A stretch of DNA of 64,000 nt from a virus, in IMG/VR virus record IMGVR_UViG_3300017716_002595, positions 32,001 to 96,000 of that record. The stretch is one strand, 5' to 3'. Each line of letters opens with the position of its first letter. Position 1 is the stretch's first letter. Below the pieces are notes generated by a model. That model was given only the letters and a program-made list of their open reading frames with translations. It did not search any database and was not told the origin of the DNA. The position numbers and the translations under genes are program-made. This document shows, in pieces, positions 2,572-55,048 of this stretch.

Positions 2572-2611
2572 GCAATATTTATAATTAACAAACAATAAAT
2601 ACAGAGAGAAC

Positions 2612-3103: not shown

Positions 3104-3128
3104 TACAAGTATTATATTAAATACAAAG

Positions 3129-3155
3129 AACCCGATAGAAATATCGGGTTTTTTT
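3129..3155 (+). terminator. rho-independent terminator
   Basis: AACCCGAT-AGAAAT-ATCGGGTT hairpin followed by a T run. Confidence 0.85.
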
Positions 3156-3207
3156 ATAGGAAACATTCTTTTGTTATATTTATATATATAAAAATAAATT
3201 TAAGTTT

Positions 3208-3969
3208 ATGGCAGAATTAAAATTTCCAACAGAAATTATTACATTACCTTCTAAAGGTCTTGTTTATCCTGAAACATCACTATTAGCTAAAGGTGAAATT
3301 GAAATGCGTTATATGAGCGCTAAAGATGAAGATATATTAACTAATATTAACTTCATTAAACAAGGAACAGCAATTGATAAATTACTAAAATCTCTAGTAG
3401 TATCACCTATTGATTTAGATGATTTAATTACAGGAGATAAAAATGCTATTTTATTCGCTGCTCGTATTTTAGGATATGGACATGATTACACATTTTCATT
3501 TAAAAATCAAGTAACAGGTAAAGACGATGAATATACTGTTGATTTAACTCAATTAGATGAAAAACCATTAGATGAAGCGTTATTTGTTCAAGGTAAAAAT
3601 GAATTTGATTTTACCTTTCCTAAATCAGGAAATAAAATAACTTTTAAGTTATTAACAGGTAAAGATGAAAAATCTATAGAAGCTGAAATTAAAGGATTAC
3701 AAAAAATAGATGCTAATGCTTCATATGAAAACACAACACGTTTAAAACATATGATAACATCTATTAATGGAAAAACAGACAAAGTATCAATCCATGATTT
3801 TGTAGACAATTACTTTTTAGCACCCGATTCAAGAGCATTCAAAAAATATTACTACGAGATATCTCCAGATATAGACACTACAATCACTATTGATAAGGAT
3901 GGATACGTACAGGAGGGCGTAGTTATCCCTATCGGGATTAACTTTTTTTGGCCTGACTTCCAAGTATAG
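3208..3969 (+). CDS. tail assembly chaperone / baseplate hub assembly protein (gp26-like)
   Basis: LPSKG..Y, MSAKDEDIL, L..GDKNAIL..ARILGYG and terminal FFWP; lies between the tube and tape-measure genes. Confidence 0.8.
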   Translation: MAELKFPTEIITLPSKGLVYPETSLLAKGEIEMRYMSAKDEDILTNINFIKQGTAIDKLLKSLVVSPIDLDDLITGDKNAILFAARILGYGHDYTFSFKNQVTGKDDEYTVDLTQLDEKPLDEALFVQGKNEFDFTFPKSGNKITFKLLTGKDEKSIEAEIKGLQKIDANASYENTTRLKHMITSINGKTDKVSIHDFVDNYFLAPDSRAFKKYYYEISPDIDTTITIDKDGYVQEGVVIPIGINFFWPDFQV

Positions 3970-24622: not shown

Positions 24623-25573
24623 ATGTCTAAAAAACATGTTGTAGTATCCTTAAGTGGAGGAATGGACTCAAGTACATTATTACTTAGATGTCTAAAAGAA
24701 TATGATAGTGTAACAGCTATTTCATTTGACTATGGTCAAAAACATAGTGTAGAGCTACAAAGAGCTCAATCATTGGTAGATTATGTTAATTCTACTTTAA
24801 GTAATTTAAGTTTTGAAGAAAAAGTTCAATGGGTTATGAAAAACCGAGATATTGAATTAGAAAACTTAGCTATTACTGAAGCAGCATCAAATTTATCTCC
24901 TATTACTTATCGTCAAATCCAATTAAATGGGTTAGTTGATTTATTAGATTCAGCCTTAGTAACAGGAGGTGAAGATGTACCAGAAGGTCATTATGCAGAA
25001 GATAATATGAAAGCAACAGTTGTTCCTAACAGAAACAAAATATTTGCTTCTATTACTCAAGCAGTAGCCTTATCAATTGCAAATCGTACAGGAGAGAATT
25101 GTGATATTGCTTTAGGTATTCACGCTGGAGATCATGCTATCTATCCAGACTGTAGACAAGAATTTAGAGATGCAGATGATGCAGCTTTTAGAATTGGAAA
25201 CTGGGAAGCTGAAAGAGTAGGTTATTTTACACCTTACTTAGAAGGAGATAAATTTACTATCCTTCAAGACGGAGAAGTGTTATGTAAAGAGTTGTACTTA
25301 GACTTTGATGAAGTTTATAAAAGAACTAATACATCTTACAAACCAATCCTTCTAGATATTGAAACTACATATTCAAAAGATGGAGTAACTTATTGGGATA
25401 ATAAAAAAGAATGGTTTTCAGATTATAAATCAGCTTCATCAGTTGAAAGAGTAGAAGCATTTATTAAATTAGGAAGACCTGATCCAGCTCCTTACGCAGA
25501 CGAAACAGGACCAGTAACATGGGAATATGTAGTAACAGAAGTAACAAAAGTATTAGATAATCATAATAAATAA
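24623..25573 (+). CDS. queC: 7-cyano-7-deazaguanine (preQ0) synthase
   Basis: SGGMDS, FDYGQKH, TVVPNRN, HAGDHAIYPDCR. Confidence 0.93.
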   Translation: MSKKHVVVSLSGGMDSSTLLLRCLKEYDSVTAISFDYGQKHSVELQRAQSLVDYVNSTLSNLSFEEKVQWVMKNRDIELENLAITEAASNLSPITYRQIQLNGLVDLLDSALVTGGEDVPEGHYAEDNMKATVVPNRNKIFASITQAVALSIANRTGENCDIALGIHAGDHAIYPDCRQEFRDADDAAFRIGNWEAERVGYFTPYLEGDKFTILQDGEVLCKELYLDFDEVYKRTNTSYKPILLDIETTYSKDGVTYWDNKKEWFSDYKSASSVERVEAFIKLGRPDPAPYADETGPVTWEYVVTEVTKVLDNHNK

Positions 25574-27056: not shown

Positions 27057-27074
27057 ATTTTTATATTTATCGAT

Positions 27075-28349
27075 ATGAAACTTGGTCTGCAACATATCAA
27101 AAAATGGTTATACCCCCTTATTCTCACTATAGGGGGTATTTTTTTGTCCTATGGACAAAATTTTACATACTCTGGCTACATTTATGGAACCAAAGAAATA
27201 GGAGTACAAGGGATAGCAGTAAAATTATTCACTAGAACATCAGGTAATTCAGCTGTAACAGCAGGATCAGAACAATTCGGTGTTACTAATGGATCTACAT
27301 TTCTAGCTCGAAATGTATTTAATGCCTCTCCAAACAACAGTACAACCTATAACTATATTACTACAAACGCTTTTATAGTAACTACTGCTGCTGGATCAGC
27401 AACAATAGCTCCATTTTCATCAAACATACCTGCTAATAGAAATAGAGGAACATCTGTATTGTATTCTTCTCAAGCAGATGAAGCTTCAGTAGCTATAACA
27501 CTCCCTGCAGGATTTACAACTTCTTTCTTAGGAAGCACTTATTCAAGTGGACACGTAAATGCAAACTCTTGGTTTACTTTTGGAACGGCAAATAGTAGTG
27601 GGTATCAAGGAAATGCAACAAACCCACCAGCGCCTACAATTCACATAGGATCCGTTGATAATAGTTTTTCGGATAATAATATGACGTTTGTATCAACTGA
27701 AGCATATACTGATCCTTTTTGGGGAGATGTATTTAGAGTGAGATATGAAGGTAATTCAAAATATACCCAATCAGGAGTTGATACTATTTGGGATTTATAT
27801 TTTGTAAAAAATCAGCCTAATATAAAATTAGTAGTTTGGAGACAATTCGTAACAGATGGTTCTAGTACAAGTATATCAGGAACACCCGCAGGACCTTGGA
27901 CTTTAAACACAACATCTACAACAAACACATCAGGGTATTATAATTTTAATACTGCGTTAAGCACAACATCAAATGAGTTTTATATTCAAATAGATACACC
28001 AACATTAACTAACGCATTAGCTGTATTAGATGCTACTGATAGTAATAATAAAGTATTAAATGGTGGATTAACTTCTTTAGATTATTATAGATATGATGTT
28101 AACAATACTAATAATATAACAGTATCTGATGTATATTCAATTTTTATGAGACGAAACGGAGTATTACCATCTTATAGTGGAACATTACCCGTATTAAGAA
28201 TATTTACACCCGTAGAATTTAACGCTTTAAAAACATCGACTACAGATTTAAGAACAACGTATCCTGGAGTACAATCAATAACAATAAATAATCCAACATC
28301 TGGTGGAACTTCTAATTACTATATAACACGATTAGGGTATAGTAATTAA
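27075..28349 (+). CDS. secreted protein with nidogen-like beta domain and C-terminal dockerin-like domain
   Basis: Signal peptide ending SYG|Q; DEASVAITLP.GF..SFLG.TYS..HVNANSWFTFG; Ca-loop YDVNNTNNITVSD. Confidence 0.65.
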   Translation: MKLGLQHIKKWLYPLILTIGGIFLSYGQNFTYSGYIYGTKEIGVQGIAVKLFTRTSGNSAVTAGSEQFGVTNGSTFLARNVFNASPNNSTTYNYITTNAFIVTTAAGSATIAPFSSNIPANRNRGTSVLYSSQADEASVAITLPAGFTTSFLGSTYSSGHVNANSWFTFGTANSSGYQGNATNPPAPTIHIGSVDNSFSDNNMTFVSTEAYTDPFWGDVFRVRYEGNSKYTQSGVDTIWDLYFVKNQPNIKLVVWRQFVTDGSSTSISGTPAGPWTLNTTSTTNTSGYYNFNTALSTTSNEFYIQIDTPTLTNALAVLDATDSNNKVLNGGLTSLDYYRYDVNNTNNITVSDVYSIFMRRNGVLPSYSGTLPVLRIFTPVEFNALKTSTTDLRTTYPGVQSITINNPTSGGTSNYYITRLGYSN

Positions 28350-28426
28350 CTATCATATTTATCTATAGACATGAAAGTGTAAAAACACCTGGTTTTTGAA
28401 TTAATAATTACTTAAACAAAAAAGAA

Positions 28427-29518
28427 ATGAAAAAATTACTTTTAGCTTTAAGTTTGGTTTTAGTATCATTAACAGGATTCGCACAAACTACAGCACCTGA
28501 TGCTACTAAGCCTTACTTAATCTTTGACGCTAGTTATAATCTAGCACCAATTGGAGCAACACCTACAAACGTTGCAATTTATTATGATAATGCTGGTTCT
28601 ACAGATATCAAAGCCGTACAGTACAGATTTTGGTATGACAAAAACGTATTTGATTCTCCAACAGTAACTTACACAGGAGCTGAAACAAACAACTATTTCC
28701 AAACATTAGTAAACGCTACTGAAGGAAATGTAACAGTTACATGGGTTTACACTGGAGCAAATGCTTCTTTCAACATCGCAGATGGAGAAATGTTCAACGT
28801 AGCTTTACCGTTCAAATCAGGTTACACCAATGGGACTGTAACCGCAATGGCATTTACAGGAGGAACAGCTTACCCAGCTTACGGTACTTTAGCAAATGGA
28901 ACTGATACAACATTAGGATTACAAAATTATGGTGGAGCATTTACAGAACCAGTATTTAACTATGCTGCTACATTCTTAAATTCGCCCACTAACCCAGCTG
29001 AAAATGTCCCAGTTATTTTACAAAAATCTTCAAATGGAACAACTTGGGTAGATGTAATAACTGTTAACACAGCAACTACAACAGGGGTAGCATCATTCAC
29101 AACTAACTTAGACCAAAACTACTGGCAAATTAGAGTAAAAGTAGCACCAGGTCTTACTGCACCAGATGCTTTATCTACAGCAGATGCTGACATGATGGCT
29201 CAACTTGCTACAGGATTACAAACACCAACTGGAATCCAATTCTATACTGCTAACCCTAACCAAGCAAATGGAATTACAATTTCAGATTCATATACATTAT
29301 TTTCAAGATTAGCTCAAGGTTTAACAACTTATCCAAACAATCCTGATGTATTATTCTTTACAGAAGCCCAATACACTCAAATTGCAGCTGCTTCAACAAG
29401 TTTATCAGCTACAATACCAGGAGTATCAACATTTACTTCAGCTAATATCAATAATACAACAGCTGCTAATTATTATTTATTAGTATTAGGAGACGCAAAC
29501 GGAACAGGACGTAATTAA
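28427..29518 (+). CDS. secreted cohesin + dockerin-like protein
   Basis: Signal peptide GFA|Q; cohesin-like IKAVQYRFWYDKNVF...DGEMFNV; dockerin-like STADA...ANPNQANGITISD and LGDANG. Confidence 0.65.
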   Translation: MKKLLLALSLVLVSLTGFAQTTAPDATKPYLIFDASYNLAPIGATPTNVAIYYDNAGSTDIKAVQYRFWYDKNVFDSPTVTYTGAETNNYFQTLVNATEGNVTVTWVYTGANASFNIADGEMFNVALPFKSGYTNGTVTAMAFTGGTAYPAYGTLANGTDTTLGLQNYGGAFTEPVFNYAATFLNSPTNPAENVPVILQKSSNGTTWVDVITVNTATTTGVASFTTNLDQNYWQIRVKVAPGLTAPDALSTADADMMAQLATGLQTPTGIQFYTANPNQANGITISDSYTLFSRLAQGLTTYPNNPDVLFFTEAQYTQIAAASTSLSATIPGVSTFTSANINNTTAANYYLLVLGDANGTGRN

Positions 29519-29519
29519 T

Positions 29520-30251
29520 ATGTTACGCTATATAATCATAGCACTGTTATCAATAAATTCACTATATTCTCAGGTACAATTTCAAGTACCTGGGATTACA
29601 GTGTCTCTATCTAATACTATTGATTTACCTGTAACAATTCAAACAAACGGGAATGTATTAGGGAGTTTAGAGTTTGCTTTAAATTATGATCAAAATATTC
29701 TACAATTCTCAGAAATAATCTTATCTGAAAAAGCACAAACCTGGTTAACCTATACAATGGATACCGGAAATGGAAAAGTAAGATGGGGAGGATATGATAG
29801 AACACATGGACAATATTCTATTACAAACCCTACAGAACTATTTATATTGAAGTTTACAGTACTTAATCCTAACTGGACTACAACTCCTATAACAGTAGGA
29901 AGAAAGACAGCGGGAGATGTACAAGGATGGGATATAGCTGTAACTAATACAGATGGGTATGTTAACATGAATAGAAATGCCGCTCCTTTAGATGAAGACG
30001 GTATTAATGGTAGAGCATATCCTGTACCTACAAATGATACTGTAACATTAGATTTATCTCTTCCTGTAAGTGGAGACTATAATATAATAGTCTATGACCT
30101 AAATGGTAATGTTTTACAAAACAAAAAACAACGTTTTGTAAAAGGAGATAATTTTATTCAAGAAAACTTACACCCTTACCCAAGTGGTGTCTATTTATTA
30201 CAAATAACAAATACTAAATTTGTAAAAACATTTAAAATTATAAAAAATTAA
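29520..30251 (+). CDS. secreted cohesin-domain protein with T9SS C-terminal sorting domain
   Basis: Signal LYS|Q; IDLPV...LGSLEFALNYDQNILQF...LFILKF; CTD YPVPTND...VYDLNG...SGVYLLQI...KTFKIIK. Confidence 0.8.
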   Translation: MLRYIIIALLSINSLYSQVQFQVPGITVSLSNTIDLPVTIQTNGNVLGSLEFALNYDQNILQFSEIILSEKAQTWLTYTMDTGNGKVRWGGYDRTHGQYSITNPTELFILKFTVLNPNWTTTPITVGRKTAGDVQGWDIAVTNTDGYVNMNRNAAPLDEDGINGRAYPVPTNDTVTLDLSLPVSGDYNIIVYDLNGNVLQNKKQRFVKGDNFIQENLHPYPSGVYLLQITNTKFVKTFKIIKN

Positions 30252-30254
30252 ACT

Positions 30255-30581
30255 ATGTCAGAAGAAACAAACAACGAAGGTGGATTATCAGGATTGAAAA
30301 AAACCATTATTGGAACTCTAACTACAGTAATCGGTGGAGCAGGTATTTGGGTATCAACAACTTTATTTGGAGGCCACCCAGAAGATAAGGAAGAACCAAA
30401 AACCGAAGTAGCAGCACCAGCTGCAGCGCCTGTTATTAATGTTAATTTGGAAAACAATAACACCAACCAACAAAAACAACAATCTAATAACTCTAATTCT
30501 AATAACGTAAAGCAACAACCAGTACCAGTACAAACAGCTCCTGCTCCTACTCCAGTTAAAAAAGAAGAAGAGTCATGGTAA
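30255..30581 (+). CDS. single-TM protein with Asn/Gln-rich and Pro-rich tail
   Basis: TIIGTLTTVIGGAGIWV TM segment; INVNLENNNTNQQKQQSNNSNSNN. Confidence 0.7.
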   Translation: MSEETNNEGGLSGLKKTIIGTLTTVIGGAGIWVSTTLFGGHPEDKEEPKTEVAAPAAAPVINVNLENNNTNQQKQQSNNSNSNNVKQQPVPVQTAPAPTPVKKEEESW

Positions 30582-31288
30582 AAAATATATTAGTATTTAT
30601 AACTTTATTTCTTAGTTTAGTATCCTATTCACAAAAAATAGGCTCTACTAAAACTGAGGAGTATAAGGCTGATTTTGAAAAGAAACAGTCTTTAGAAGTT
30701 GTATCTAATTATACCGATACTATTCAAATACCAATATCTGTATTAAAAATTGGTATTAATGCAGAATTATATGAAATGTATCCTGAATTAAAGGACGCTA
30801 GAGTAGGATTAGGTGTAGCTAACATAGTACTTGAATATTTAGAATCTACAGATAGATTTGTATTCACAGAAGATAAAGAAGAGATAAAACAAAAAATGAT
30901 TGCTCAACATAAAGCATCAGCCAAAGGAATCTCTTCAAATGAAATAGTTGTTAAAGGAAATGTAATTCTAGCAAAATACTTCGTTTACATAGAAGTATAT
31001 GATTTTAGTGTAGGTGAGGATGAAGAAATTGCAACTAACGGAATCGAAATAAAACAAAAAACAATATTAGGATTACAAGTAAGATTTGTGGATGCACAAA
31101 CTGGTGAAATAATTACTGGATCAGGATCTGGTGAAGCGGTTACAGTGAAGAAAGCTAATCTACTAGACGGAATCGACGATATAAAATTTAACCAATCAAC
31201 AATCGGAATATCTACCAAAAAGTCATTAGAAACTGCTTCTTCAAGAGTAGTAAGTAAAATGATTAAAAAGGGGATATTTCGTAGTTAA
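30575..31288 (+). CDS. CsgG/HfaB-like (curli transport fold) secreted protein
   Basis: Signal SYS|Q; GLGVANIVLEYL..TDRFVFTE, AKYFVYIEVYDF, LQVRFVDAQTGEII. Confidence 0.75.
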   Translation: MVKNILVFITLFLSLVSYSQKIGSTKTEEYKADFEKKQSLEVVSNYTDTIQIPISVLKIGINAELYEMYPELKDARVGLGVANIVLEYLESTDRFVFTEDKEEIKQKMIAQHKASAKGISSNEIVVKGNVILAKYFVYIEVYDFSVGEDEEIATNGIEIKQKTILGLQVRFVDAQTGEIITGSGSGEAVTVKKANLLDGIDDIKFNQSTIGISTKKSLETASSRVVSKMIKKGIFRS

Positions 31289-32706
31289 TGAAAAAATGGA
31301 TACTATTATTCTCACTATTTTCAGCCCTGACTTCTTGGAGTCAGTACACTTATACTTACAAAGACCCTTGCACTCTAGTATCAAAAAGTATTTACGTACC
31401 AGCTGGTGGAGGGGTAATGGTAAGTTACTTCGACAATCATAGCACTTTTACATCTAATGATTTTTCTTCGGGAGTATTTGACAACTGGTTAAATACAGTA
31501 TCTCAACAAAACACAAACTCACCTTGCGAATCTGTAACTACAGCTATTGTAAATGGTATAACTAACATTACCGTTGCTAATACTTTAACCATTGTTACAA
31601 ATGTAATATCTGTAACTAACATTGCACAATCAATAGCATCTGTAGGAGGATCTATGGGGGATTCTATGACAGCTACAGCAGGAGGAGTAACAAACTCTTC
31701 ACAAAATGAAGAAGGTAGTACTAACCAAAACTCAAAAGATGACAAAAAATCAAATTCAAATACATCTGCAGGAACGAATACAGGAACTGCTGGAACAAGC
31801 CCAACAGGTAACCAAAATCAAGGAGGCCAAACCAATCCTAATTCTTCTGGAGGAACACCTTCACAACCTCCATCAGGAACACCTCAACAAGGAGGAGAAA
31901 CTACAAATCCAAATCAACCAACTTCAACAGGAGGTTCAACGTCTGAGTCATCTGTAGAAGGATCAAGCGGTGGAGGAAGCAACTTAGCTAACTCTTTATC
32001 AAATGCTGTAGACGGTGGATCAGCAGATGGAGGGAGCACTTCTGGAGGTGGAGGTAAAAAATCTAATGCTGCTACAAAAAATGCAGGAAGTTTAATCGCT
32101 TCTGGAGATATAGTAGCAATAGCTAATACTGATCAAACTCAAAACTTTAGATTTGTAGGAAGTATAACTCATGCTAACACAAGAGGAACTAGGATTAAAG
32201 GAGTATTATTTAATTTCACATCAGGGGTTAATAACTTAAATGTTACTTTTTATAAATCTTGGGTTAATAAATCTAGAAAATTAAATACAGTAGGTGCTCA
32301 ATCCTTTATGATGGATTTCGATAAAAACTTCTTTAGTACAACTACAGTACTAGAATCATATAAAGTAAACAAAAAATTAACAGGTATGTTTGGTGTAAAC
32401 TTTACAGCAGGTAAAATGGGAGAAAGATCTCTATTAAATATGTCTGCCGTAGGAGGTGTTCATACTACTTTTAAAGTAAGTGATAGAGTTAGTACTAGTA
32501 TACTTATATTAGGAGTTTATTCTCCATTCACTCAATTCTATGAAGGTAAATGGTGGGATGCTGGGATATTAGCTGTACCGTTTAATTCCTGGGACATAAA
32601 AATAACAAAAACATTCAAGTTTAACGTAAGCTTTACAGGAGTATACCAAGTTGGTGAATCATTCCTAAACTATCAAGTACTCACAGGAGGTAAATTAAAT
32701 TTCTAA
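31288..32706 (+). CDS. secreted protein: Cys-pair N-domain, G/S/T/N/Q low-complexity linker, probable outer-membrane beta-barrel
   Basis: Signal SWS|Q; alternating amphipathic strands in the C-terminal half; ends YQVLTGGKLNF (terminal Phe, BAM-type signal). Confidence 0.65.
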   Translation: MKKWILLFSLFSALTSWSQYTYTYKDPCTLVSKSIYVPAGGGVMVSYFDNHSTFTSNDFSSGVFDNWLNTVSQQNTNSPCESVTTAIVNGITNITVANTLTIVTNVISVTNIAQSIASVGGSMGDSMTATAGGVTNSSQNEEGSTNQNSKDDKKSNSNTSAGTNTGTAGTSPTGNQNQGGQTNPNSSGGTPSQPPSGTPQQGGETTNPNQPTSTGGSTSESSVEGSSGGGSNLANSLSNAVDGGSADGGSTSGGGGKKSNAATKNAGSLIASGDIVAIANTDQTQNFRFVGSITHANTRGTRIKGVLFNFTSGVNNLNVTFYKSWVNKSRKLNTVGAQSFMMDFDKNFFSTTTVLESYKVNKKLTGMFGVNFTAGKMGERSLLNMSAVGGVHTTFKVSDRVSTSILILGVYSPFTQFYEGKWWDAGILAVPFNSWDIKITKTFKFNVSFTGVYQVGESFLNYQVLTGGKLNF

Positions 32707-32709
32707 TAT

Positions 32710-32778
32710 ATGAAAACATTAAATCAATTATTTGAAAAGTTCTACGATAAAATTTCTAATTTCCTTTTTGGAAAATAA
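32710..32778 (+). CDS. 22-aa amphipathic peptide
   Basis: MKTLNQLFEKFYDKISNFLFGK; fills the gap between two operon genes. Confidence 0.5.
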   Translation: MKTLNQLFEKFYDKISNFLFGK

Positions 32779-32791
32779 ATTATTAAACAAT

Positions 32792-33229
32792 ATGAAAAAA
32801 TTAATTTTTATTTTATTATTTCCTATTTTCATGTTTTCACAAGAGTGTTATACTGTTAAAGAAATAACTTCAAGTGCTCAAATCGAAGAAATGAGTCAAA
32901 AAAGAATTACATTTGGTATTAAACAAATGGCTGAAGAATTAATATCTGACAAATATTCTATATGTCAAGATGGTAATCCTGTTATTATTGATGTTTATTC
33001 TATAGAAGCGCCTTCTAAAGGAATGTCATTAGGGCCATTTGCTAAAAATAAAAAACAAACTATAGTAAAAATAAAAGTATTATTAGGTGATAAAGAATTA
33101 TTAGGTGAAGGATTAGCCGAAACATCAACACAATCTATGTTTTTAGATTTAAATGATGATAATTTACCATTCAATAAAACTTCATTTGCATCAGCTATCA
33201 AAAAAGCATTAGAATCAGCTTTAAATTAA
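32792..33229 (+). CDS. secreted protein, second CsgG/TolB-N-like fold (start 32792)
   Basis: MKKLIFILLFPIFMFS|Q; FGIKQMAEEL and G.G.AET...FNKTSFASAIKKALE, paralleling FNQSTIGISTKKSLE in 30575. Confidence 0.6.
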   Translation: MKKLIFILLFPIFMFSQECYTVKEITSSAQIEEMSQKRITFGIKQMAEELISDKYSICQDGNPVIIDVYSIEAPSKGMSLGPFAKNKKQTIVKIKVLLGDKELLGEGLAETSTQSMFLDLNDDNLPFNKTSFASAIKKALESALN

Positions 33230-33306
33230 TATTTATCGACAAATGTTATATAATTTGTTTTGAAAGTAGGTTATACAATTAATTAACTAACTTAAAAAAT
33301 TATTTT

Positions 33307-33549
33307 ATGGGATTTTTCAGTATTTTTAAAAAATCAAATGATTACAATGAAAAAGTTGTAATTGGATTCATGTCATTTATGGTAATGGTAATTGCTATTG
33401 TAGTAGACCTTGTAACAGGTTACATGGGTAAAGCATTAGAATTAAACGAGTACATCTTCGACGCATTTATGTACATTACATTAGGTTCATTCCTTCCAGA
33501 TGTATTAGAAAAATTTGCAGGATTTAAAAACGGTAAAAAAGAAGAATAA
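33307..33549 (+). CDS. putative holin (2 TM)
   Basis: Two hydrophobic helices and a charged C-terminus, directly upstream of the endolysin. Confidence 0.6.
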   Translation: MGFFSIFKKSNDYNEKVVIGFMSFMVMVIAIVVDLVTGYMGKALELNEYIFDAFMYITLGSFLPDVLEKFAGFKNGKKEE

Positions 33550-33551
33550 TT

Positions 33552-34163
33552 ATGAGCTTAAAAAGTTTACAAGCTAAAATAGGAGTAGCAGCAGACGGAG
33601 CATTCGGTCCTGGTACTATGAAAAAAGCAATGGAGTTTTATAAACTAACACCAGTTAGAGCAGCTCACTTCTTTGCACAAACCGCTCACGAAACAGGTGG
33701 TTATAAATTGTTTTCTGAAAACTTAAACTACTCAGCTCAAGGTCTTCAAGGTATATTCGGAAAATATTTTCCAGGTACTTTAGAAGAGTCTTATGCTAGA
33801 AATCCTGAAAAAATCGCAAACAGAGTTTACGCATCTAGGATGGGTAACGGTGATGAAAAATCAGGAGATGGTTGGAAATACAGAGGTAGAGGTGCTTTAC
33901 AATTAACTGGAAAAGATAATTATGCTGCATTCGCTAAGTATTTACAAAAACCAGAAATCATGACTAACCCTGATTTAGTAGCTACAGAATATTCATTTGA
34001 ATCAGCAATGTTCTTCTTTGATAAAAACAAATTGTGGGAGATATGCGACAAAGGAATTAACGATGCAGCTATATTAGCTCTTACAAAAAGAATTAACGGT
34101 GGTACTCACGGGTTAGAGGATAGAAACCAAAAAACTAAAAAATACTACGAATACGTTAAATAG
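33552..34163 (+). CDS. endolysin, glycoside hydrolase family 19 with peptidoglycan-binding N-terminus
   Basis: ADGAFGPGT; AHFFAQTAHETGG, ENLNYS, YRGRGALQLTGKDNY, TKRINGGTHGLEDR. Confidence 0.93.
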   Translation: MSLKSLQAKIGVAADGAFGPGTMKKAMEFYKLTPVRAAHFFAQTAHETGGYKLFSENLNYSAQGLQGIFGKYFPGTLEESYARNPEKIANRVYASRMGNGDEKSGDGWKYRGRGALQLTGKDNYAAFAKYLQKPEIMTNPDLVATEYSFESAMFFFDKNKLWEICDKGINDAAILALTKRINGGTHGLEDRNQKTKKYYEYVK

Positions 34164-34174
34164 TAAAACATAAG

Positions 34175-34591
34175 ATGAAAACTTCACTTTTAATTACATT
34201 ATCATTGACAACAGCTTGCGCATTTATAGGTTCATATTTTATGAATCTAACAGCAGATAACATAGAACAATACCTTTCGGTAGCATTTGTAATATTTGCT
34301 GACGGATTTTTCGGTGTTTGGGCTGGAATTAAAAGAGAGGGATTCCAAACTTGTAAAGCATTAAGTGTACTAAAAACATTTGTATTTTGGACAGTAATGC
34401 TTTCAGCTATATTAACAATAGAAAGAGGATTCACTGGAACATCATGGTTAAGTGAGACAATTATGGCTCCATTCTTGGTATTCCAGTTAATCTCTATTTT
34501 AAAAAATGCATCAATGGTAGGAGTAGTTAAAAACGAACTACTAACTCAAATTTTAGATAAACTAGATAAACATAAAGGAAAAAGACAATAA
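34175..34591 (+). CDS. phage holin family protein
   Basis: 3-4 TM segments; D.FFGVWAG..REGF, SILKNASMVG; follows the endolysin. Confidence 0.75.
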   Translation: MKTSLLITLSLTTACAFIGSYFMNLTADNIEQYLSVAFVIFADGFFGVWAGIKREGFQTCKALSVLKTFVFWTVMLSAILTIERGFTGTSWLSETIMAPFLVFQLISILKNASMVGVVKNELLTQILDKLDKHKGKRQ

Positions 34592-34663: not shown

Positions 34664-35437
34664 ATGAAAAGAATAGAAGATTATAACAAAACACTTCCCA
34701 TTGTAGAACTTTATACAGCTGTACAATCAGAAGGAAGTAGAGCAGGCTATCCAACGGTAGTAATCAGAACAACAGGCTGTACTCACAGATGTTGGTTTGG
34801 TGATGGTGGTTGGTGTGATTCTTGGTATACAAGTATTCATCCTGAGAAAGGACATATTAGTTTCCAAGACATTATTAACATGTATGATGCCAATCCTCAC
34901 ATCACAGAAATGATGTTAACTGGAGGATCACCTACAATGCACCCAGCATTAGTAAATGAACTAACACATTTTGCACATGAAAGAAAAATCTTCATTACAA
35001 TCGAAACTGAGGGCTCTCATTTTCTGGAGACTGACTATCCTATTAATTTACTTTCCATATCACCTAAGTTTAGTAACTCGGTTCCTAAAATCGGAGTACT
35101 TACACCTCAAGGAGCGGTTACGGATGAAAAAATGATCAAGCAACACAACAAGTTAAGACTTAACTATGATGCTATGTCTAAAATGATAGCTTATCATTCC
35201 GACTACCACTTAAAACCAGTATGGGATGGGGAAGATCAAGGAGCATTAGATGAAATTATGGGTTGTATTAAAGTATTAGATATACCGCAAGATAAAGTAT
35301 GGTTCATGCCAGCTGGTGATTCAAGAGAGGCTTTATTTAAATCATATCCTAAAATGTTTGATTGGGTGAGAGATAATGGTTATAGATTAACTTGGAGACC
35401 ACATATCATTGCGTTTGAAGATCAAAGAGAAGTATAA
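34664..35437 (+). CDS. queE: 7-carboxy-7-deazaguanine synthase (radical SAM)
   Basis: QSEG..AG.P.V.IR..GC.HRC...WCDS, LTGGSP, IETEG, SISPK. Confidence 0.9.
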   Translation: MKRIEDYNKTLPIVELYTAVQSEGSRAGYPTVVIRTTGCTHRCWFGDGGWCDSWYTSIHPEKGHISFQDIINMYDANPHITEMMLTGGSPTMHPALVNELTHFAHERKIFITIETEGSHFLETDYPINLLSISPKFSNSVPKIGVLTPQGAVTDEKMIKQHNKLRLNYDAMSKMIAYHSDYHLKPVWDGEDQGALDEIMGCIKVLDIPQDKVWFMPAGDSREALFKSYPKMFDWVRDNGYRLTWRPHIIAFEDQREV

Positions 35438-35501: not shown

Positions 35502-36197
35502 ATGGAAAACAAACGACGAAAGAGTCACACTGATCTAGAAGTGGTACAAGTAGGATTTGCTAATGGTGTTGCACCTGGTTTCCCTTTTACCGATCAAGAA
35601 AAGGAAAAAATGATCGATGATGCTGAACAAGCATATGGTTTATTTTTAGATGCCTTAAAATGTGATTGGAGAAATGATCCAAATTCAATGGAAACTCCAC
35701 GACGTGTAGCTAAAGCTTACGTTCACGATTTATGGAAAGGTAGATATACTGCAATGTCTGAAATTACTTCATTTCCAAGTGATGGTTATGATGGTATTAT
35801 AATTGAAAGAAATATACCATTAACATCAATGTGCTCACATCACCATCAAACAATTGGAGGTGTAGTTCATATTGGTTATATCTCAGGAGAAAATGGTCAA
35901 GTAATTGGTTTATCTAAATTAAATCGTATTGTAGAATTATTTGGCCGTAGAGGAGCTATTCAAGAACAATTAACATCAGCTATTCATAATGCTGTGGATA
36001 AAATTACAGAAGGTAATTTAGGTGTTATTGTAACTATAGTAGGTACTCATAATTGTGTGTCTTGTAGAGGTGTTAAACATCAAGGTGCAGCAATGGTTAC
36101 TACTAAAGCAAGTGGTGCTTTTAGAGATGATGCCAATAATGCTCGTAAAGAGTTCTTTGATTCATTAAAGATTAATAATGGTGGACATAATATTTAA
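35502..36197 (+). CDS. folE: GTP cyclohydrolase I
   Basis: ETPRRVAK, SMCSHH, IGLSKLNR, IQEQLT, HNCVSCRGV. Confidence 0.95.
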   Translation: MENKRRKSHTDLEVVQVGFANGVAPGFPFTDQEKEKMIDDAEQAYGLFLDALKCDWRNDPNSMETPRRVAKAYVHDLWKGRYTAMSEITSFPSDGYDGIIIERNIPLTSMCSHHHQTIGGVVHIGYISGENGQVIGLSKLNRIVELFGRRGAIQEQLTSAIHNAVDKITEGNLGVIVTIVGTHNCVSCRGVKHQGAAMVTTKASGAFRDDANNARKEFFDSLKINNGGHNI

Positions 36198-53605: not shown

Positions 53606-55048
53606 ATGAAAAAACATTACATCCCTCAGGAGCAACGAAAAAAAATCCTTATTCTATCTGATGACATCAGAACAACATCCGGGATTGCTACTATGACAAG
53701 AGAAATGGTTTTAGGAACATGTCACCATTTCAATTGGGTAAATTTAGGAGCAACAATCAAAAACCCAGATGAAGGTAAAAAAATCGACTTAAGTGGAGAT
53801 TCAAACAAATTTAATGGTATAACGGATGCTAGTGTTTTCCTCTATCCATCATCCGGATATGGTACTATTGAAAGAGTAAGAGAATTACTTAAAATAGAAA
53901 AACCAGATGCAATAATGCTATTCACTGATCCCCGTTATTGGGAATGGTTATGGGTACATGAAAGAGAAATACGTTCTCAAGTTCCAATCTTATATCTTAA
54001 TATTTGGGATTCATTACCTTATCCAATATATAATAGAGGATATTATGATTCATGTGACTTATTAATGGCAATTTCTAAACAAACTGAAAATATAAACAGA
54101 GTTGTATTAGGAGAAAAAGCTAAAAGTAAAGTAATTACTTATGTTCCTCATGGTATTAATGAAGATATTTTCTTCCCTATCGATGAAAATCATGAAAAAT
54201 GGGATGAATTACAACAATTTAAAAAACAATTATTTAATGGTAAAGAATATGAATTTACATTAATGTTTAACTCAAGAAACATTAGACGTAAATCATTTCC
54301 AGATACATTATTAGCTTGGAAAATGTTTGTAGATGGATTACCTGAAGATAAAAAAGATAAAGTAGCATTTATTGCTCATACTCAACCCATAGATGAAAAT
54401 GGTACTGATTTAAATGCTGTTATTGAAATGATTTGGGGTAAAACACCACCAAACGTATTCATTACTGGTTTAAATAGATTCGTACCTGAACAAATGAACT
54501 TACTATATAATTGCTCAGATGCGGGTATATTAATATCTTCAAATGAAGGATGGGGATTATCTTTAACAGAAGCAATGATGTGTGGTAAACCTATTATTGC
54601 TAATGTAACTGGAGGTATGCAAGACCAAATGAGATTCGAAGACGAAAATGGCGAATGGGTTCAATTTACAGAAGAATTTGGTTCTAATCATTTTGGAAAA
54701 TATAAAAAACATGGTGAATGGGCATTTCCTGTATTCCCTAGCAACATGAGTTTAATTGGTTCCGTACCAACACCTTATATATTTGATGATAGAGCAGATT
54801 TTAGAGATGCTGCTGATCAAATTAAAGTACTCTATAATTTAGGGAAAGAAGAAAGAACAAATAAAGGAAAAGCGGCTAGAAAATGGGTAATGTCTGATGA
54901 AGCTATGATGACTTCTAAAAATATGTCTATCAATGTTATAAATTCTATTAATAAGACTTTAGAAACATTTACACCAAGACCATCTTACGATTTTATCCAC
55001 ATTAATGAACTACCAGCAAAACAAAACAAACATATAATTTCGTTATGA
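53606..55048 (+). CDS. GT4-family glycosyltransferase
   Basis: SGIA, VPHGI, SRNIRRK, SSNEGWGLSLTEAMMCGKP. Confidence 0.88.
   Translation: MKKHYIPQEQRKKILILSDDIRTTSGIATMTREMVLGTCHHFNWVNLGATIKNPDEGKKIDLSGDSNKFNGITDASVFLYPSSGYGTIERVRELLKIEKPDAIMLFTDPRYWEWLWVHEREIRSQVPILYLNIWDSLPYPIYNRGYYDSCDLLMAISKQTENINRVVLGEKAKSKVITYVPHGINEDIFFPIDENHEKWDELQQFKKQLFNGKEYEFTLMFNSRNIRRKSFPDTLLAWKMFVDGLPEDKKDKVAFIAHTQPIDENGTDLNAVIEMIWGKTPPNVFITGLNRFVPEQMNLLYNCSDAGILISSNEGWGLSLTEAMMCGKPIIANVTGGMQDQMRFEDENGEWVQFTEEFGSNHFGKYKKHGEWAFPVFPSNMSLIGSVPTPYIFDDRADFRDAADQIKVLYNLGKEERTNKGKAARKWVMSDEAMMTSKNMSINVINSINKTLETFTPRPSYDFIHINELPAKQNKHIISL

What the first reader, a model, noticed from the sequence alone, without database searches (positions are those of the whole stretch)
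27063..33229. Phage-encoded cohesin-dockerin / T9SS / CsgG-fold operon: a candidate surface scaffold built on the infected cell
Seen: seven co-oriented envelope genes plus a peptide, behind ATATTTAT late-type motifs (27063, 28355) and directly before the holin-endolysin cassette. Six have Sec signals cleaving before Gln, as is typical of Bacteroidota. Domains by motif: nidogen-like + dockerin (27075); cohesin + dockerin (28427); cohesin + T9SS CTD (29520); TM + N/Q-rich tail (30255); CsgG/HfaB-fold (30575); low-complexity linker + beta-barrel ending in Phe (31288); second CsgG-like fold (32792). Established: cohesin-dockerin pairs build cellulosome scaffolds; CTDs route proteins through the Bacteroidota T9SS to the surface; CsgG/HfaB export or anchor curli and holdfast. 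Inference: the three-part logic suggests anchor (cohesin-CTD), self-extending link (cohesin-dockerin binding head to tail) and tip adhesin (dockerin), with a phage-supplied pore or barrel for subunits lacking a CTD. Possible roles: aggregating infected cells with new hosts, masking receptors, or deterring grazers. I do not know of a described phage system like this.
Basis: partly seen in the sequence, partly recalled or inferred. Interest (0 to 1): 0.92.

Follow-up and report, generated by a model that had tools for sequence, protein, structure and literature searches.

The report
Phage cohesin-dockerin lectin display cassette
A large family of T4-like phages of Flavobacteria carries a conserved, late-type operon of exported proteins that look built to assemble swappable sugar-binding heads onto a cohesin-dockerin scaffold sent to the infected cell's surface by the host type IX secretion system, next to two CsgG-fold proteins and a probable outer-membrane barrel. 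No such phage system turned up in the literature I could search.

Summary
Seven co-oriented genes (27075-33229) lie directly before the lysis genes, and six have Sec signals cleaved before Gln.

Domain calls:
- O3 is cohesin plus a type-A T9SS CTD (Pfam, NCBIfam).
- O2 is cohesin, small beta-sandwich, dockerin (AF2 model; cohesin Z 15.1).
- O1 and O2 share the sandwich-dockerin module (hhalign 94.7% to true dockerins; controls at most 0.9%).
- O5 has a CsgG fold (Z 13.1), and O7 is its short paralogue (97.4%).
- O6's barrel is probable only, and O1's "nidogen-like" head was not confirmed.

New here:
- The cassette is phage-specific and widespread. O5 alone has 221 IMG/VR matches, and gene order is kept across 80 loci.
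- dN/dS is 0.11-0.36.
- A promoter-like motif shared with tail genes sits before O2 in 34 of 52 lineages.
- O2 and O3 are one fused protein in most lineages.
- O1 heads are swapped (C-type lectin, ConA-like, PA14, GEVED) even between near-identical phages.

Best reading (about 0.55): a T9SS-exported lectin display scaffold on infected cells. The "phage-supplied CsgG pore" is doubtful: no lipobox, an acidic hairpin, a shortened second hairpin and no curli partners. Phage T9SS cargo and phage CsgG have each been reported separately; the combined cohesin-dockerin system was not found in the literature searched.

The parts
27063..27070 (+). ATATTTAT promoter-like motif 4 nt before the O1 start codon
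   Evidence: The same motif ends 4-6 nt before the start in 9 of 45 O1-type upstream regions of related phages. It precedes tail sheath, tube and hub genes in the window.
27075..28349 (+). O1, 424 aa: Sec signal (cleaved before Gln28), variable head (aa ~28-272, family unknown), small beta-sandwich (aa ~274-314), dockerin-like core (aa ~315-369), conserved C-terminal extension (aa ~370-424)
   Evidence: Head: 400 unannotated relatives; NIDO not confirmed. In related phages the head is Lectin_C, Laminin_G_3, PA14, GEVED or Ig_7.
28355..28362 (+). ATATTTAT promoter-like motif 64 nt before the O2 start; likely head of the O2-O7 transcription unit
   Evidence: 34 of 52 distinct related upstream regions; none upstream of O3-O7.
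28427..29518 (+). O2, 363 aa adaptor: Sec signal, cohesin (aa 25-175), transthyretin-like beta-sandwich (aa ~180-239), dockerin-like helices (aa ~242-300), C-terminal extension ending in the invariant G-D-x-N-x-T-G (aa 355-361)
   Evidence: AF2 model pLDDT 82.5. Foldseek cohesins E 1e-7 to 1e-5. VIA 6kgc_A Z 15.1, rmsd 2.5 A over 137 aa; 3kcp_A Coh-X-Doc Z 14.3 over aa 28-298. PDB profile hits. Dockerin hhalign 94.7%. Invariant columns.
29520..30251 (+). O3, 243 aa anchor: Sec signal, cohesin (aa 20-129), type-A T9SS C-terminal sorting domain (aa 167-243)
   Evidence: Pfam Cohesin 37.5 bits (cut-off 24.1) and Por_Secre_tail 40.7 bits (cut-off 27). TIGR04183 45.2 bits (cut-off 23). Fused to O2 in most lineages.
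30255..30581 (+). O4, 108 aa: bitopic inner-membrane protein (TM aa ~17-39, Lys-Lys before it) with a P/A/N/Q-rich periplasmic tail; its stop overlaps the O5 start by 7 nt
   Evidence: Read. The N-terminal ~50-60 aa are conserved and the tail is variable in relatives. dN/dS 0.15-0.26.
30575..31288 (+). O5, 237 aa: CsgG-fold protein and the most conserved gene of the cassette. SPase-I type signal here (no lipobox Cys); long beta-hairpin aa 135-173 with an acidic tip
   Evidence: Profile hit to E. coli CsgG, E 3e-4. AF2 pLDDT 81.6. Foldseek 4uv3/4uv2 E 3e-8. VIA 6lqh_A Z 13.1, rmsd 3.3 A over 178 aa. Links to Pfam CsgG proteins. N-terminus and hairpins.
31288..32706 (+). O6, 472 aa: Sec signal, N-terminal domain with an invariant Cys pair (C28, C80), S/G/T/N/Q-rich spacer of ~150 aa that varies in length between phages, and a C-terminal ~205 aa domain that is probably an outer-membrane beta-barrel
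   Evidence: Atlas features 0.94-0.95 near Tsx/OmpK, KdgM and Phage_OMP clusters. Periodicity z only 1.6; last residue F/L/I in 36 of 44. No PDB sequence match. No relatives in 300 Bacteroidota genomes.
32792..33229 (+). O7, 145 aa: Sec signal, invariant Cys19; short paralogue of O5 (CsgG-like core lacking the middle helical segment)
   Evidence: hhalign A3 vs A2 probability 97.4%, E 1.4e-11. Alignment.
33229..34591 (+). Context: third ATATTTAT motif (33229), small TM protein (33307-33549), GH19 endolysin (33552-34163), holin (34175-34591)
   Evidence: The motif is upstream of the small TM gene in 10 of 13 related loci. Adjacency to lysis genes holds only in some lineages.

Best explanation
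This is a phage-encoded, late-expressed envelope module that builds a cohesin-dockerin scaffold carrying a glycan-binding head on the surface of the infected Flavobacteriia cell.

Shown:
- All parts are exported: six Sec signals and one membrane anchor.
- O3 is a cohesin with a type-A T9SS sorting domain.
- O2 is cohesin, beta-sandwich, dockerin.
- O1-type proteins are a variable lectin-like head plus the same sandwich-dockerin module.
- The phage has exactly two cohesins and two dockerins in the part held.
- O2 and O3 are one polypeptide in most related phages.

Inferred:
- O3 is carried across the outer membrane by the host T9SS and stays on, or is released from, the surface.
- O2 docks on O3, replacing the covalent link of the fused forms.
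- O1 docks on O2, so the head is displayed at the tip.
- The head is exchanged between otherwise near-identical phages, much as receptor-binding proteins are. Its ligand is therefore most likely a variable surface glycan of the host population.
- The likeliest uses are masking the phage's own receptor on infected cells and debris, or tethering neighbouring susceptible cells.
- O4 (inner-membrane anchor with a periplasm-spanning tail), O5 and O7 (CsgG-fold) and O6 (probable OM barrel with a long spacer and a Cys-pair domain) form an accessory envelope complex. It either anchors the scaffold or helps the CTD-less subunits across the outer membrane, by analogy with PelC-PelB and LptE-LptD rather than with a curli pore.
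For: - Domain identities.
- Natural O2-O3 fusion with Cohesin + Por_Secre_tail and recurrent sub-threshold Dockerin_1 at the same position.
- Conserved gene order in all 46 full-length loci, with at least one O1-type gene in 45 of 46.
- Head swapping. Heads found: Lectin_C, Laminin_G_3, PA14, GEVED, Ig_7. L009 keeps O2, O3, O6 and O7 at 92-95% identity but carries a GEVED-headed O1 that shares only the signal peptide and 37% of the tail.
- Only O1 and O2 carry the dockerin module, only O2 and O3 a cohesin, and only O3 a CTD, in the 105.7 kb held.
- The two cohesins are unrelated at pairwise level, and the two dockerin classes are distinct (29% between classes, 39-54% within).
- Purifying selection, dN/dS 0.11-0.36.
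- Promoter-like motif shared with tail genes and conserved before O2.
- Phage-specific distribution.
- Fold neighbours of O5 after CsgG are PelC and LptE, which are partners of OM barrels.
Against: - No binding, localisation or expression data exist.
- Cohesin-dockerin pairing was not modelled, because no multimer tool was available.
- No dockerin in the family reaches Pfam's gathering score (17-20 bits against 22.9), and its first Ca-binding loop is degenerate.
- From my own knowledge of the T9SS, type-A CTD cargo can be released rather than anchored.
- O1 and O2 lack a CTD, and no demonstrated route takes them across the outer membrane.
- The O6 barrel is not demonstrated.
- The role given to O4-O7 is by analogy only.
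- The head of this particular O1 has no identified fold, so 'lectin' is extrapolated from paralogous heads in other phages.
- Only about 64% of the genome is held.
Confidence: 0.55

Rival explanations
1. Secreted, not anchored. The T9SS releases O3 after CTD cleavage, and the O1-O2-O3 complex acts as a soluble multivalent lectin. It could agglutinate cells, coat particles or polysaccharide, or block receptors on neighbouring cells. O4-O7 would serve an unrelated envelope function.
For: The type-A CTD is compatible with release (my own knowledge of Flavobacterium T9SS cargo). There is no SLH, sortase or lipid anchor in O1-O3. Multivalency follows from two cohesin-dockerin pairs.
Against: The strict co-conservation of O4-O7 with O2/O3 in one motif-headed unit argues for one machine. 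O6 has the topology of an anchor: a probable barrel plus a long spacer.
Confidence: 0.15
2. O5 (with O7) is a true CsgG-type outer-membrane secretion channel. It exports unfolded O1 and O2, which lack a CTD, or the N/Q-rich parts of O4 and O6 as fibre-like material. This would be a phage type-VIII-like pathway feeding a T9SS-anchored scaffold.
For: CsgG is the best fold match by 3.5 Z units, and the family profile hits E. coli CsgG. The model shows a long hairpin at the TM1 position. Some phage homologues keep a lipobox. Phage CsgG/CsgF clusters exist elsewhere (PMC7029224, PMC9004378).
Against: The window's O5 has Tyr in place of the lipobox Cys. The hairpin tip carries the conserved acidic S-E-D-E. 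The TM2 segment is about 11 residues shorter than in E. coli CsgG. No CsgE, CsgF or curlin repeat is present. CsgG-like domains also occur as non-channel modules fused to kinases and caspases. The low-complexity tails are not conserved.
Confidence: 0.15
3. O4-O7 are lysis accessories. They would be an outer-membrane disruption or spanin-like device (IM-anchored O4, OM-associated O5/O7, OM barrel O6) that happens to be co-transcribed with surface proteins.
For: In the window the cassette abuts the small-TM, endolysin and holin genes, which carry the same motif. An endolysin lies within a few kb in many related loci. O4 is a type-II membrane protein translationally coupled to O5. No canonical spanin was noticed in the region.
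Against: In Immutovirus no lysis gene is annotated within 11 kb downstream of the cassette in the stretch shown. O5 is a 237-aa CsgG-fold protein, not a small o-spanin lipoprotein, and is not lipidated here. O4 has a low-complexity tail rather than a coiled coil. The order O2O3-O4-O5-O6 is invariant, whereas the position of the lysis genes varies.
Confidence: 0.1
4. A non-functional or recently captured host fragment, or virion components.
For: Cohesin, dockerin, CTD and CsgG families are all common in Bacteroidota chromosomes.
Against: The cassette has 221 IMG/VR matches and conserved order over 26-100% identity. dN/dS is 0.11-0.36. No host locus has the same neighbours. O6 has no host relatives in 300 genomes. 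The single 'bacterial' locus sits on a contig with a tail sheath gene. By established knowledge of tailed-phage assembly, Sec signals on six proteins are incompatible with cytoplasmic virion assembly.
Confidence: 0.03

Closest known systems
Cellulosome scaffoldins of Clostridia (e.g. C. thermocellum CipA Coh9-X-DocII bound to anchoring cohesins; PDB 3kcp, 4fl4)
   Same: True cohesin fold (Z up to 15.1). The adaptor has the module order cohesin, small beta-sandwich, dockerin, and aligns along aa 28-298 with 3kcp_A. There are two divergent cohesin classes and two dockerin classes, as in type I/type II hierarchies.
   Different: Encoded by a virulent-type phage. The anchor is a T9SS CTD rather than SLH domains or sortase. 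The cargo is lectin-like heads, not enzymes. The first F-hand of the dockerin is degenerate, and a conserved ~55-aa extension follows it. Only two cohesins are present.
Non-cellulosomal dockerins and cohesins of Bacteroidota chromosomes
   Same: The phage sandwich-dockerin profile directly hits bacterial regions that Pfam certifies as Dockerin_1. Dockerin_1 occurs in 93 of 301 sampled genomes.
   Different: The bacterial dockerins sit inside giant 1000-4000 aa proteins. No host locus with the cassette's gene set was found.
Phage-encoded T9SS cargo of 'Cryophage' (Bellas et al. 2020, PMC7468147)
   Same: A Bacteroidota phage carrying genes with type-A T9SS sorting domains. They are variable between phage variants, include a PA14 protein, and were proposed to act in competition or superinfection.
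   Different: There the variable proteins carry the CTD themselves. Here the CTD sits on a constant cohesin anchor, and the variable heads attach through dockerins. That paper does not contain the words cohesin or dockerin.
Phage-encoded CsgG/CsgF clusters of pelagimyophages and methylophage Melnitz (PMC7029224, PMC9004378)
   Same: T4-like aquatic myoviruses with a CsgG homologue of unknown role. 'Sibling capture' and lysis-timing hypotheses were proposed. The top viral structural match of O5 is annotated CsgG.
   Different: Those phages have CsgF, and their CsgG models keep a barrel. Here there is no CsgF or CsgE, there is a second truncated paralogue (O7), and the association is with cohesin-dockerin and T9SS parts.
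E. coli curli channel CsgG (PDB 4uv3, 6lqh)
   Same: Same fold over 178 residues (Z 13.1, rmsd 3.3 A) and a profile-level sequence match.
   Different: No lipobox in this O5, an acidic TM1-equivalent hairpin, a TM2 segment about 11 residues shorter, and no curli subunits or accessory proteins.
PelC-PelB and LptE-LptD (lipoprotein of the CsgG/LptE fold class paired with an OM beta-barrel)
   Same: After CsgG, the next structural neighbours of O5 are PelC (Z 9.6), PelBC (8.7) and LptE in LptDE (8.7). O5 and O7 are encoded on either side of a probable barrel protein.
   Different: This is an analogy only: no sequence relationship was shown, the barrel is unverified, and no polysaccharide or LPS genes are in the cassette.

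Membership tests
Cohesin (PF00963) | Sequence match above Pfam gathering score | tested here: met
   O3: 37.5 bits against 24.1 and 38.8 bits. O2 itself reaches only 15.5 bits, though one O2 homologue cluster carries PF00963.
Cohesin (PF00963) | Nine-stranded jelly-roll cohesin fold | tested here: met
   O2 aa 25-175: VIA Z 15.1, rmsd 2.5 A over 137 aa to 6kgc_A. The first 20 rows of the VIA list are all cohesins, Z 9.8-15.1. Foldseek E 1e-7 to 1e-5. O3 was not folded.
Cohesin-dockerin system | Ca-dependent high-affinity binding of dockerin to cohesin | not testable with these tools
   No multimer prediction or experiment was available.
Dockerin (PF00404) | Sequence match above Pfam gathering score (22.9 bits) | tested here: not met
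   Best 17-20 bits, in 5 of 10 fused O2-O3 proteins at the same position. 5 of 19 O1 relatives, best E 0.012. The window's O1 and O2 give no hit at E up to 1.
Dockerin (PF00404) | Profile-level homology to certified dockerins | tested here: met
   hhalign of A5 against 17 Bacteroidota Dockerin_1 domains: probability 94.7%, E 6e-8, 56 columns. Unrelated, reversed and 20 shuffled controls give at most 0.9%. The A5 profile hits bacterial regions that coincide with Pfam Dockerin_1 hits.
Dockerin (PF00404) | Two duplicated F-hand Ca-binding loop-helix segments | tested here: inconclusive
   The second loop is canonical: D-V-N-x-[DT]-N-x-I-T-[IV]-S-D followed by a helix. The first helix aligns, but the first loop lacks the D-x-N-x-D pattern and is not covered by the hhalign match. 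Three helices are present in the model at aa 251-297.
T9SS type-A C-terminal sorting domain (TIGR04183 / PF18962) | C-terminal ~75-aa domain above the curated cut-offs | tested here: met
   O3 aa 167-243: 45.2 bits against 23, 40.7 against 27. It is the only one in the 105.7 kb held.
T9SS type-A C-terminal sorting domain (TIGR04183 / PF18962) | T9SS-dependent export and CTD cleavage in the host | not testable with these tools
   The host of this uncultured phage is unknown. Cultured relatives infect Flavobacterium sp. LMO8. That Flavobacterium has a T9SS is established knowledge, not tested here.
CsgG (PF03783) | Sequence match above Pfam gathering score | tested here: not met
   O5 and O7 give no Pfam hit at E up to 1. 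The link is transitive: O5 relatives at phmmer E 1e-9 to 1e-17 carry PF03783 above cut-off, and the O5 profile hits host PF03783 proteins at E down to 6e-22.
CsgG (PF03783) | CsgG fold | tested here: met
   6lqh_A Z 13.1, rmsd 3.3 A over 178 aa, with the next family at Z 9.6. 4uv3/4uv2 Foldseek E 3e-8. Profile against PDB CsgG, E 3e-4. O7 is homologous to O5, 97.4%.
CsgG (PF03783) | N-terminal lipobox Cys (outer-membrane lipoprotein) | tested here: not met
   The window's O5 reads ..LVSYS|QK with no Cys. Some phage homologues have L-F-S-C, and the bacterial relatives have a canonical lipobox. O7 has an invariant Cys19, but its -1 residue is E, K, N or D.
CsgG (PF03783) | Two amphipathic transmembrane hairpins forming a 36-strand nonameric barrel | tested here: inconclusive
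   A long hairpin (aa 135-173) is modelled, but its tip is acidic and conserved as S-x-[SG]-E-[DE]-E. The TM2-equivalent segment is about 11 residues shorter than in E. coli CsgG, by my count from the alignment and the window sequence, and has low pLDDT. The oligomer was not modelled.
Curli (type VIII) secretion system | Presence of CsgA/B curlin repeats and CsgE/CsgF accessory proteins | tested here: not met
   No PF07012, PF10627 or PF10614 match at E up to 0.1 in the 105.7 kb held. The genome is about 64% complete.
Outer-membrane beta-barrel (O6 C-terminal domain) | Even number of amphipathic strands and a C-terminal aromatic/hydrophobic beta-signal | tested here: inconclusive
   The window's O6 ends ..KLNF. 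The last residue is F, L or I in 36 of 44 family members. Period-2 hydrophobic moment z is only 1.6 against shuffles. Atlas features 0.94-0.95 lie next to Tsx/OmpK, KdgM and Phage_OMP clusters. No Pfam or PDB sequence match.
NIDO / nidogen-like domain (PF06119) for the O1 head | Sequence or profile match to NIDO | tested here: not met
   No Pfam hit in 19 family members. hhalign against 9 Bacteroidota NIDO domains gives 0.1-0.5%, equal to shuffles. There are only two short motif resemblances and an Atlas score of 0.78. The fold was not tested.
Two-component spanin | Type-II inner-membrane protein with a periplasmic coiled coil, plus a small OM lipoprotein, encoded with the lysis genes | tested here: not met
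   O4 is a type-II membrane protein, but its tail is low-complexity P/N/Q-rich. O5 is a 237-aa CsgG-fold protein without a lipobox here. Adjacency to lysis genes is not conserved.

The most novel reading that the evidence does not exclude
Large Flavobacteriia phages build their own modular display scaffold on the infected cell. A constant T9SS-exported cohesin anchor and adaptor accept interchangeable dockerin-tagged lectins. The phage population swaps these lectins as it swaps receptor-binding proteins, either to mask its receptor glycan on infected cells and debris or to tether fresh hosts. A CsgG-fold ring and barrel complex acts as a previously unknown envelope partner of a cohesin-dockerin system.
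Probability: 0.4. Interest if true: 0.88.

Novelty: new variant of a known kind. Interest (0 to 1): 0.75.

Why it matters
Cohesin-dockerin assemblies are known as bacterial and archaeal devices, above all for cellulose degradation. A virus-encoded version that uses the host's type IX secretion system and carries lectin heads would be a new use of this module and a new class of phage 'surface remodelling' genes.

The cassette is abundant. O5 alone has 5784 relatives in public metagenomes and 221 matches in IMG/VR. It is under purifying selection and is present in cultured phages (Immutovirus on Flavobacterium sp. LMO8), so the hypothesis can be tested directly.

The head swapping between near-identical phages points to an arms-race interface that is not the virion's own receptor-binding protein. 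It could bear on how phages avoid wasting progeny on dead cells, exclude competitors or aggregate hosts in aquatic particles.

It also bears on the unexplained CsgG homologues in other aquatic T4-like phages. Here the CsgG-fold protein looks unsuited to be a curli-type pore, and it sits in a defined protein context.

A plug-in cohesin-dockerin display system for T9SS-bearing bacteria could also be a useful tool.

Tried and rejected
- Single-sequence searches of O1, O2, O4-O7 against Pfam, PHROGs, NCBIfam and PDB gave nothing. Profiles and folds were needed.
- NIDO for the O1 head was rejected as unproven. Atlas score 0.78, no Pfam hit in 19 relatives, no PDB hit, hhalign at shuffle level under three settings.
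- O6: the PDB profile gave only low-complexity noise. The hydrophobic-periodicity test was weak (z 1.6). There are no host relatives.
- The focused dockerin profile against PDB sequences stayed insignificant (4uyp_B E 1.4). The question was settled by hhalign against Bacteroidota dockerins and by overlap with Pfam-certified regions.
- Curli system: no CsgE, CsgF or curlin.
- Host origin of the cassette: the host CsgG genes have unrelated neighbours (thioredoxin-like, peptidase S9, Ppx, or DUF4810 + GNA1162), and no O2, O6 or O7 relatives lie within 9 kb.
- The one hit in 'bacterial' genomes lies on a 254 kb MAG contig that also encodes a tail sheath.
- The sigma-70 promoter and intrinsic terminator scans equal chance.
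- The 22-codon ORF between O6 and O7 is not conserved.

Full report
**What the window is.** The window lies in a 105.7 kb IMG/VR virus record that CheckV estimates to be 64% complete. It is AT-rich (about 31% GC), and almost all genes are on the + strand. Tail sheath, tail tube and baseplate hub genes lie at 433-3969. By megablast, 73% of the 6.3 kb query covering the cassette, O2 to O6, is about 80.5% identical to Flavobacterium phages vB_FspM_immuto (Immutovirus, 160 kb, host Flavobacterium sp. LMO8, Baltic Sea). The orthologous genes there are annotated 'lectin C-type domain', 'cohesin domain' and five 'hypothetical' proteins.

**The observation.** O2 to O6 are packed with gaps of at most 3 nt or with overlaps; the O4 stop overlaps the O5 start by 7 nt. 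Six proteins begin with a hydrophobic signal followed by Gln. O4 has a single TM helix preceded by Lys-Lys, and a P/A/N/Q-rich tail. Downstream are a small TM protein, a GH19 endolysin and a holin.

**The motif.** ATATTTAT is at 27063, 28355 and 33229.
- Its total count (14) is below the shuffle expectation (about 23).
- 12 of 14 copies are on the + strand and sit in short gaps before genes, including the tail sheath, tail tube and baseplate hub.
- In related phages it lies within 110 nt upstream of the O2 homologue in 34 of 52 distinct upstream regions.
- The background is 2.2% of 110-nt windows, and it is upstream of O3-O7 in 0 of 227 regions.
- So O2 to O7 behave as one unit with a conserved promoter-like element shared with late structural genes. 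'Late' is by association only, not measured.

**Distribution and conservation.**
- O5 has 5784 relatives at E up to 1e-3 in the metagenome protein collection and 221 matches in IMG/VR, many on contigs of 100-300 kb.
- Among one genome per GTDB species there is a single close match. It lies on a 254 kb MAG contig that also encodes a tail-sheath homologue, so it is most likely a binned jumbo phage or a prophage.
- tblastn of all cassette proteins against the fetched loci shows the same order everywhere. Identities are O5 66-100%, O2 31-96%, O3 26-99%, O6 24-97% and O7 26-100%.
- Of 46 loci with at least 7 kb on both sides, 24 read O2O3(fused)-O4-O5-O6-O7-O1, 13 read O1-O2-O3-O4-O5-O6-O7 as in the window, and 6 read O2O3-O4-O5-O6-O1-O7. 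45 of 46 carry at least one O1-type gene.
- Pairwise dN/dS of O2 to O7 against four relatives is 0.11-0.36.
- The cassette's neighbours differ between phages. In Immutovirus it follows NrdAB and nucleases, and no lysis gene is annotated within 11 kb downstream of the cassette in the stretch shown.
- The idea of an unexpressed host fragment is therefore rejected.

**The scaffold proteins: O3 and O2.**
- O3 matches Pfam Cohesin (aa 20-129, 37.5 bits) and Por_Secre_tail (aa 167-240, 40.7 bits). It also matches NCBIfam's type-A sorting domain (45.2 bits).
- O2 was folded on a 47-sequence alignment (pLDDT 82.5).
- O2 residues 25-175 are a cohesin: VIA-align Z 15.1, rmsd 2.5 A over 137 residues to 6kgc_A, with the first 20 rows of the list all cohesins at Z 9.8-15.1. 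Foldseek gives E 1e-7 to 1e-5.
- The best full-length matches are the CipA Coh9-X-DocII chains 4fl4 and 3kcp (aligned over aa 28-298). These have the same module order.
- A profile of the family gives weak but mutually consistent PDB matches. They are a transthyretin-like sandwich at 185-225, a dockerin (4uyp_B) at 252-306, a cohesin at 398-534 and a T9SS CTD at 546-626 of the fused form.

**The dockerin.**
- O1 (aa ~274-424) and O2 (aa ~220-363) share a homologous module at 25-39% identity.
- The module consists of a small beta-sandwich, a helical segment and a conserved ~55-aa extension. The helical segment has the consensus D-A-x3-N-x2-V-L-G ... D-V-N-x-D-N-x-I-T-I-S-D-x-Y-x-I-F-x-R-x2-G.
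- hhalign of this module against 17 Pfam-certified dockerins taken from Bacteroidota genomes gives probability 94.7%, E 6e-8, over 56 columns.
- The controls were three unrelated alignments, the reversed dockerin alignment and 20 column shuffles. They give at most 0.9%.
- Independently, the phage profile hits large bacterial proteins exactly where Pfam calls Dockerin_1 above its cut-off. Examples are G132:C11 102329-102634 against 102440-102580 and G208:C1 2666074-2666547 against 2666230-2666373.
- Sub-threshold Dockerin_1 hits recur at the same position in 5 of 10 fused proteins and 5 of 19 O1 relatives.
- The first Ca-binding loop is degenerate, and no member passes Pfam's threshold. I therefore call it a divergent dockerin.

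**The fusion.** In most lineages O2 and O3 are one ORF of 629-648 aa with the order cohesin, sandwich, dockerin, extension, cohesin, CTD. In the window's clade the gene is split. O3 has acquired its own signal peptide where the fused forms have a ~40-aa linker. This natural fusion and fission is the strongest indirect evidence that O2 and O3 act in one complex. It implies that the whole adaptor is T9SS cargo in the fused lineages.

**The heads.**
- O1-type proteins keep the signal peptide and the sandwich-dockerin module but carry different heads: Lectin_C, Laminin_G_3 (ConA-like), PA14, GEVED and Ig_7.
- Exchange happens between close relatives. L009 has O2, O3, O6 and O7 at 92-95% identity to the window, but its O1 is a GEVED protein. 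It shares 96% of the first 28 residues and only 37% of the tail. L012 has two O1-type genes in tandem.
- The window's own head has 400 unannotated relatives.
N-x-N ... F, and P-F-W-x-D-V. Pfam, PDB and profile-profile tests do not support it. The Atlas score of 0.78 is below a usable level.

**Stoichiometry.** In the 105.7 kb held, the dockerin module occurs only in O1 and O2, cohesin only in O2 and O3, and the CTD only in O3. The two cohesins show no pairwise similarity (BLASTP E 3.6). The two dockerin classes are 29% identical between classes and 39-54% within. This fits two specific pairs (O1 on O2, O2 on O3), but the pairing is inferred.

**O5 and O7.**
- O5 relatives found by an exhaustive phmmer search include proteins in which Pfam sees CsgG and LpoB above threshold. 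Some are fused to Ser/Thr kinases, and other O5 relatives are fused to caspases.
- The O5 family profile hits E. coli CsgG (E 3e-4).
- In 52 of 401 sampled Bacteroidota genomes the profile hits chromosomal proteins (E down to 1.6e-20). The three checked are PF03783 members at E 1e-30 to 1e-42.
- The AF2 model (pLDDT 81.6, pTM 0.74) matches CsgG best. VIA gives 6lqh_A Z 13.1, rmsd 3.3 A over 178 aa, against Z 9.6 or less for PelC, LptE, FlgT-type and related lipoproteins. Foldseek gives E 3e-8.
- O7 is a shortened paralogue (hhalign 97.4%).

**Is O5 a channel?** The features that make CsgG a channel are doubtful here.
- The window's O5 has Tyr where some phage homologues and the bacterial relatives have the lipobox Cys.
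- The TM1-equivalent hairpin carries a conserved acidic tip.
- The TM2-equivalent segment is about 11 residues shorter than in E. coli CsgG and has low confidence.
- No CsgE, CsgF or curlin repeat is encoded in the part held.
- I therefore accept 'CsgG fold' and doubt 'CsgG-type pore'.

**O4 and O6.**
- O4's first 50-60 residues (cytoplasmic stub plus TM) are conserved, and its tail is variable.
- O6 has a conserved N-terminal domain with an invariant Cys pair, a low-complexity spacer whose length varies (proteins of 363-737 aa), and a conserved C-terminal ~205 residues.
- Language-model features place that C-terminal part next to small 12-stranded porins and a 'Phage_OMP' cluster, at 0.94-0.95.
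- My periodicity test is weak (z 1.6), and the terminal residue is F, L or I in 36 of 44 members.
- There is no Pfam or PDB sequence match, and no relative in 300 Bacteroidota genomes.
- The barrel is thus probable but unproven.

**Mechanism.** I commit, at about 0.55, to a late-expressed, T9SS-dependent surface scaffold. O3 would be the anchor, O2 the adaptor and O1 the exchangeable glycan-binding tip. O4 to O7 would form an accessory envelope complex.
- Shown: the domain identities, export signals, fusion, head exchange, conservation and selection.
- Inferred: the pairings, the surface location, the expression timing, the ligand and the role of O4-O7.
- Head exchange between near-identical phages suggests a ligand that varies among host strains. 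The most likely uses are receptor masking on infected cells and debris, or tethering of neighbouring hosts. I cannot separate these two.

**Rivals.**
- A released soluble lectin complex (0.15).
- A true CsgG-type export pore for the CTD-less subunits (0.15).
- A lysis-accessory role for O4-O7 (0.10).
- A host fragment or virion parts (0.03).

**Comparison with the literature.**
- Phage-encoded T9SS cargo has been reported once ('Cryophage': an endoglucanase, a GH39 and a PA14 protein, variable between variants; PMC7468147).
- Phage CsgG/CsgF clusters are described in pelagimyophages and Melnitz, with unresolved function (PMC7029224, PMC9004378).
- The best viral structural match of O5 is annotated CsgG.
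- Full-text searches combining phage, cohesin, dockerin, T9SS and CsgG terms found no description of a phage cohesin-dockerin system.
- The paper on Baltic Flavobacterium phages that infect strain LMO8 contains none of the terms cohesin, lectin, CsgG, curli or secretion.
- I class the finding as a new variant of known kinds (cohesin-dockerin scaffolds, phage-encoded surface cargo) rather than categorically new. Every module is known; the new elements are the combination, the viral origin, the T9SS anchor and the lectin cargo.

**Limits.**
- Two structure predictions were allowed, so O1's head, O3, O4, O6 and O7 were not folded, and no complex was modelled.
- The genome is incomplete.
- The genome samples were 301-401 of the Bacteroidota species held, so absences mean 'not found in those searched'.

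Noticed in passing
window 24623-25573, 34664-35437, 35502-36197: QueC, QueE-like radical SAM and GTP cyclohydrolase I genes flank the cassette and the lysis genes (translations; QueC annotated in Immutovirus). Immutovirus phages appear in a study of 7-deazaguanine DNA modifications (PMC10516641). In Immutovirus the cassette lies upstream of QueC, whereas in the window it lies downstream, so the module has moved relative to the modification genes.
   Followed up: partly
L003 / G001:C291 (254 kb contig of a Bacteroidetes MAG): The only 'bacterial genome' locus with the cassette sits on a contig that also encodes an endolysin and a 1020-aa tail-sheath homologue. It is probably a jumbo phage binned into the MAG, or a prophage. 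IMG/VR contigs of 270 and 308 kb also carry the cassette.
   Followed up: partly
P0301, P0325, P0336, P0337, P0339 (relatives of O5): CsgG-like domains related to O5 occur fused to an N-terminal Ser/Thr protein kinase, and other relatives are fused to a C-terminal caspase (Peptidase_C14) domain. This shows that the fold is also used as a non-channel sensor or partner domain.
   Followed up: no
window 27063-27075 and related loci: Upstream of O1-type genes the ATATTTAT motif ends only 4-6 nt before the start codon (9 of 45 regions), whereas before O2 it ends 8-65 nt away, mostly in clusters at 27-38 and 55-65 nt. If it is a -10-like element, O1 mRNAs would be nearly leaderless. This is unexplained.
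   Followed up: partly
window 32710-32778: A 22-codon ORF lies in the 85-nt O6-O7 gap. In L009 O7 starts 3 nt after O6 ends, so that ORF is not conserved. A TTG at 32732 would extend O7 by 20 residues, but the alignment supports the ATG at 32792.
   Followed up: yes
L112 (G042:C15) and other Bacteroidota chromosomes: Chromosomal CsgG-family genes of Bacteroidota occur either alone or in a CsgG - small ORF - DUF4810 - GNA1162-like cluster. That is a conserved lipoprotein set of unknown function with no curli genes nearby.
   Followed up: no
window 53606-56346: Two adjacent glycosyltransferase-like genes (PHROG 2170, category 'moron/auxiliary') lie in the phage. One has the ATATTTAT motif about 250 nt upstream, and the other has a copy inside its ORF. 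They may belong to DNA or surface glycan modification.
   Followed up: no
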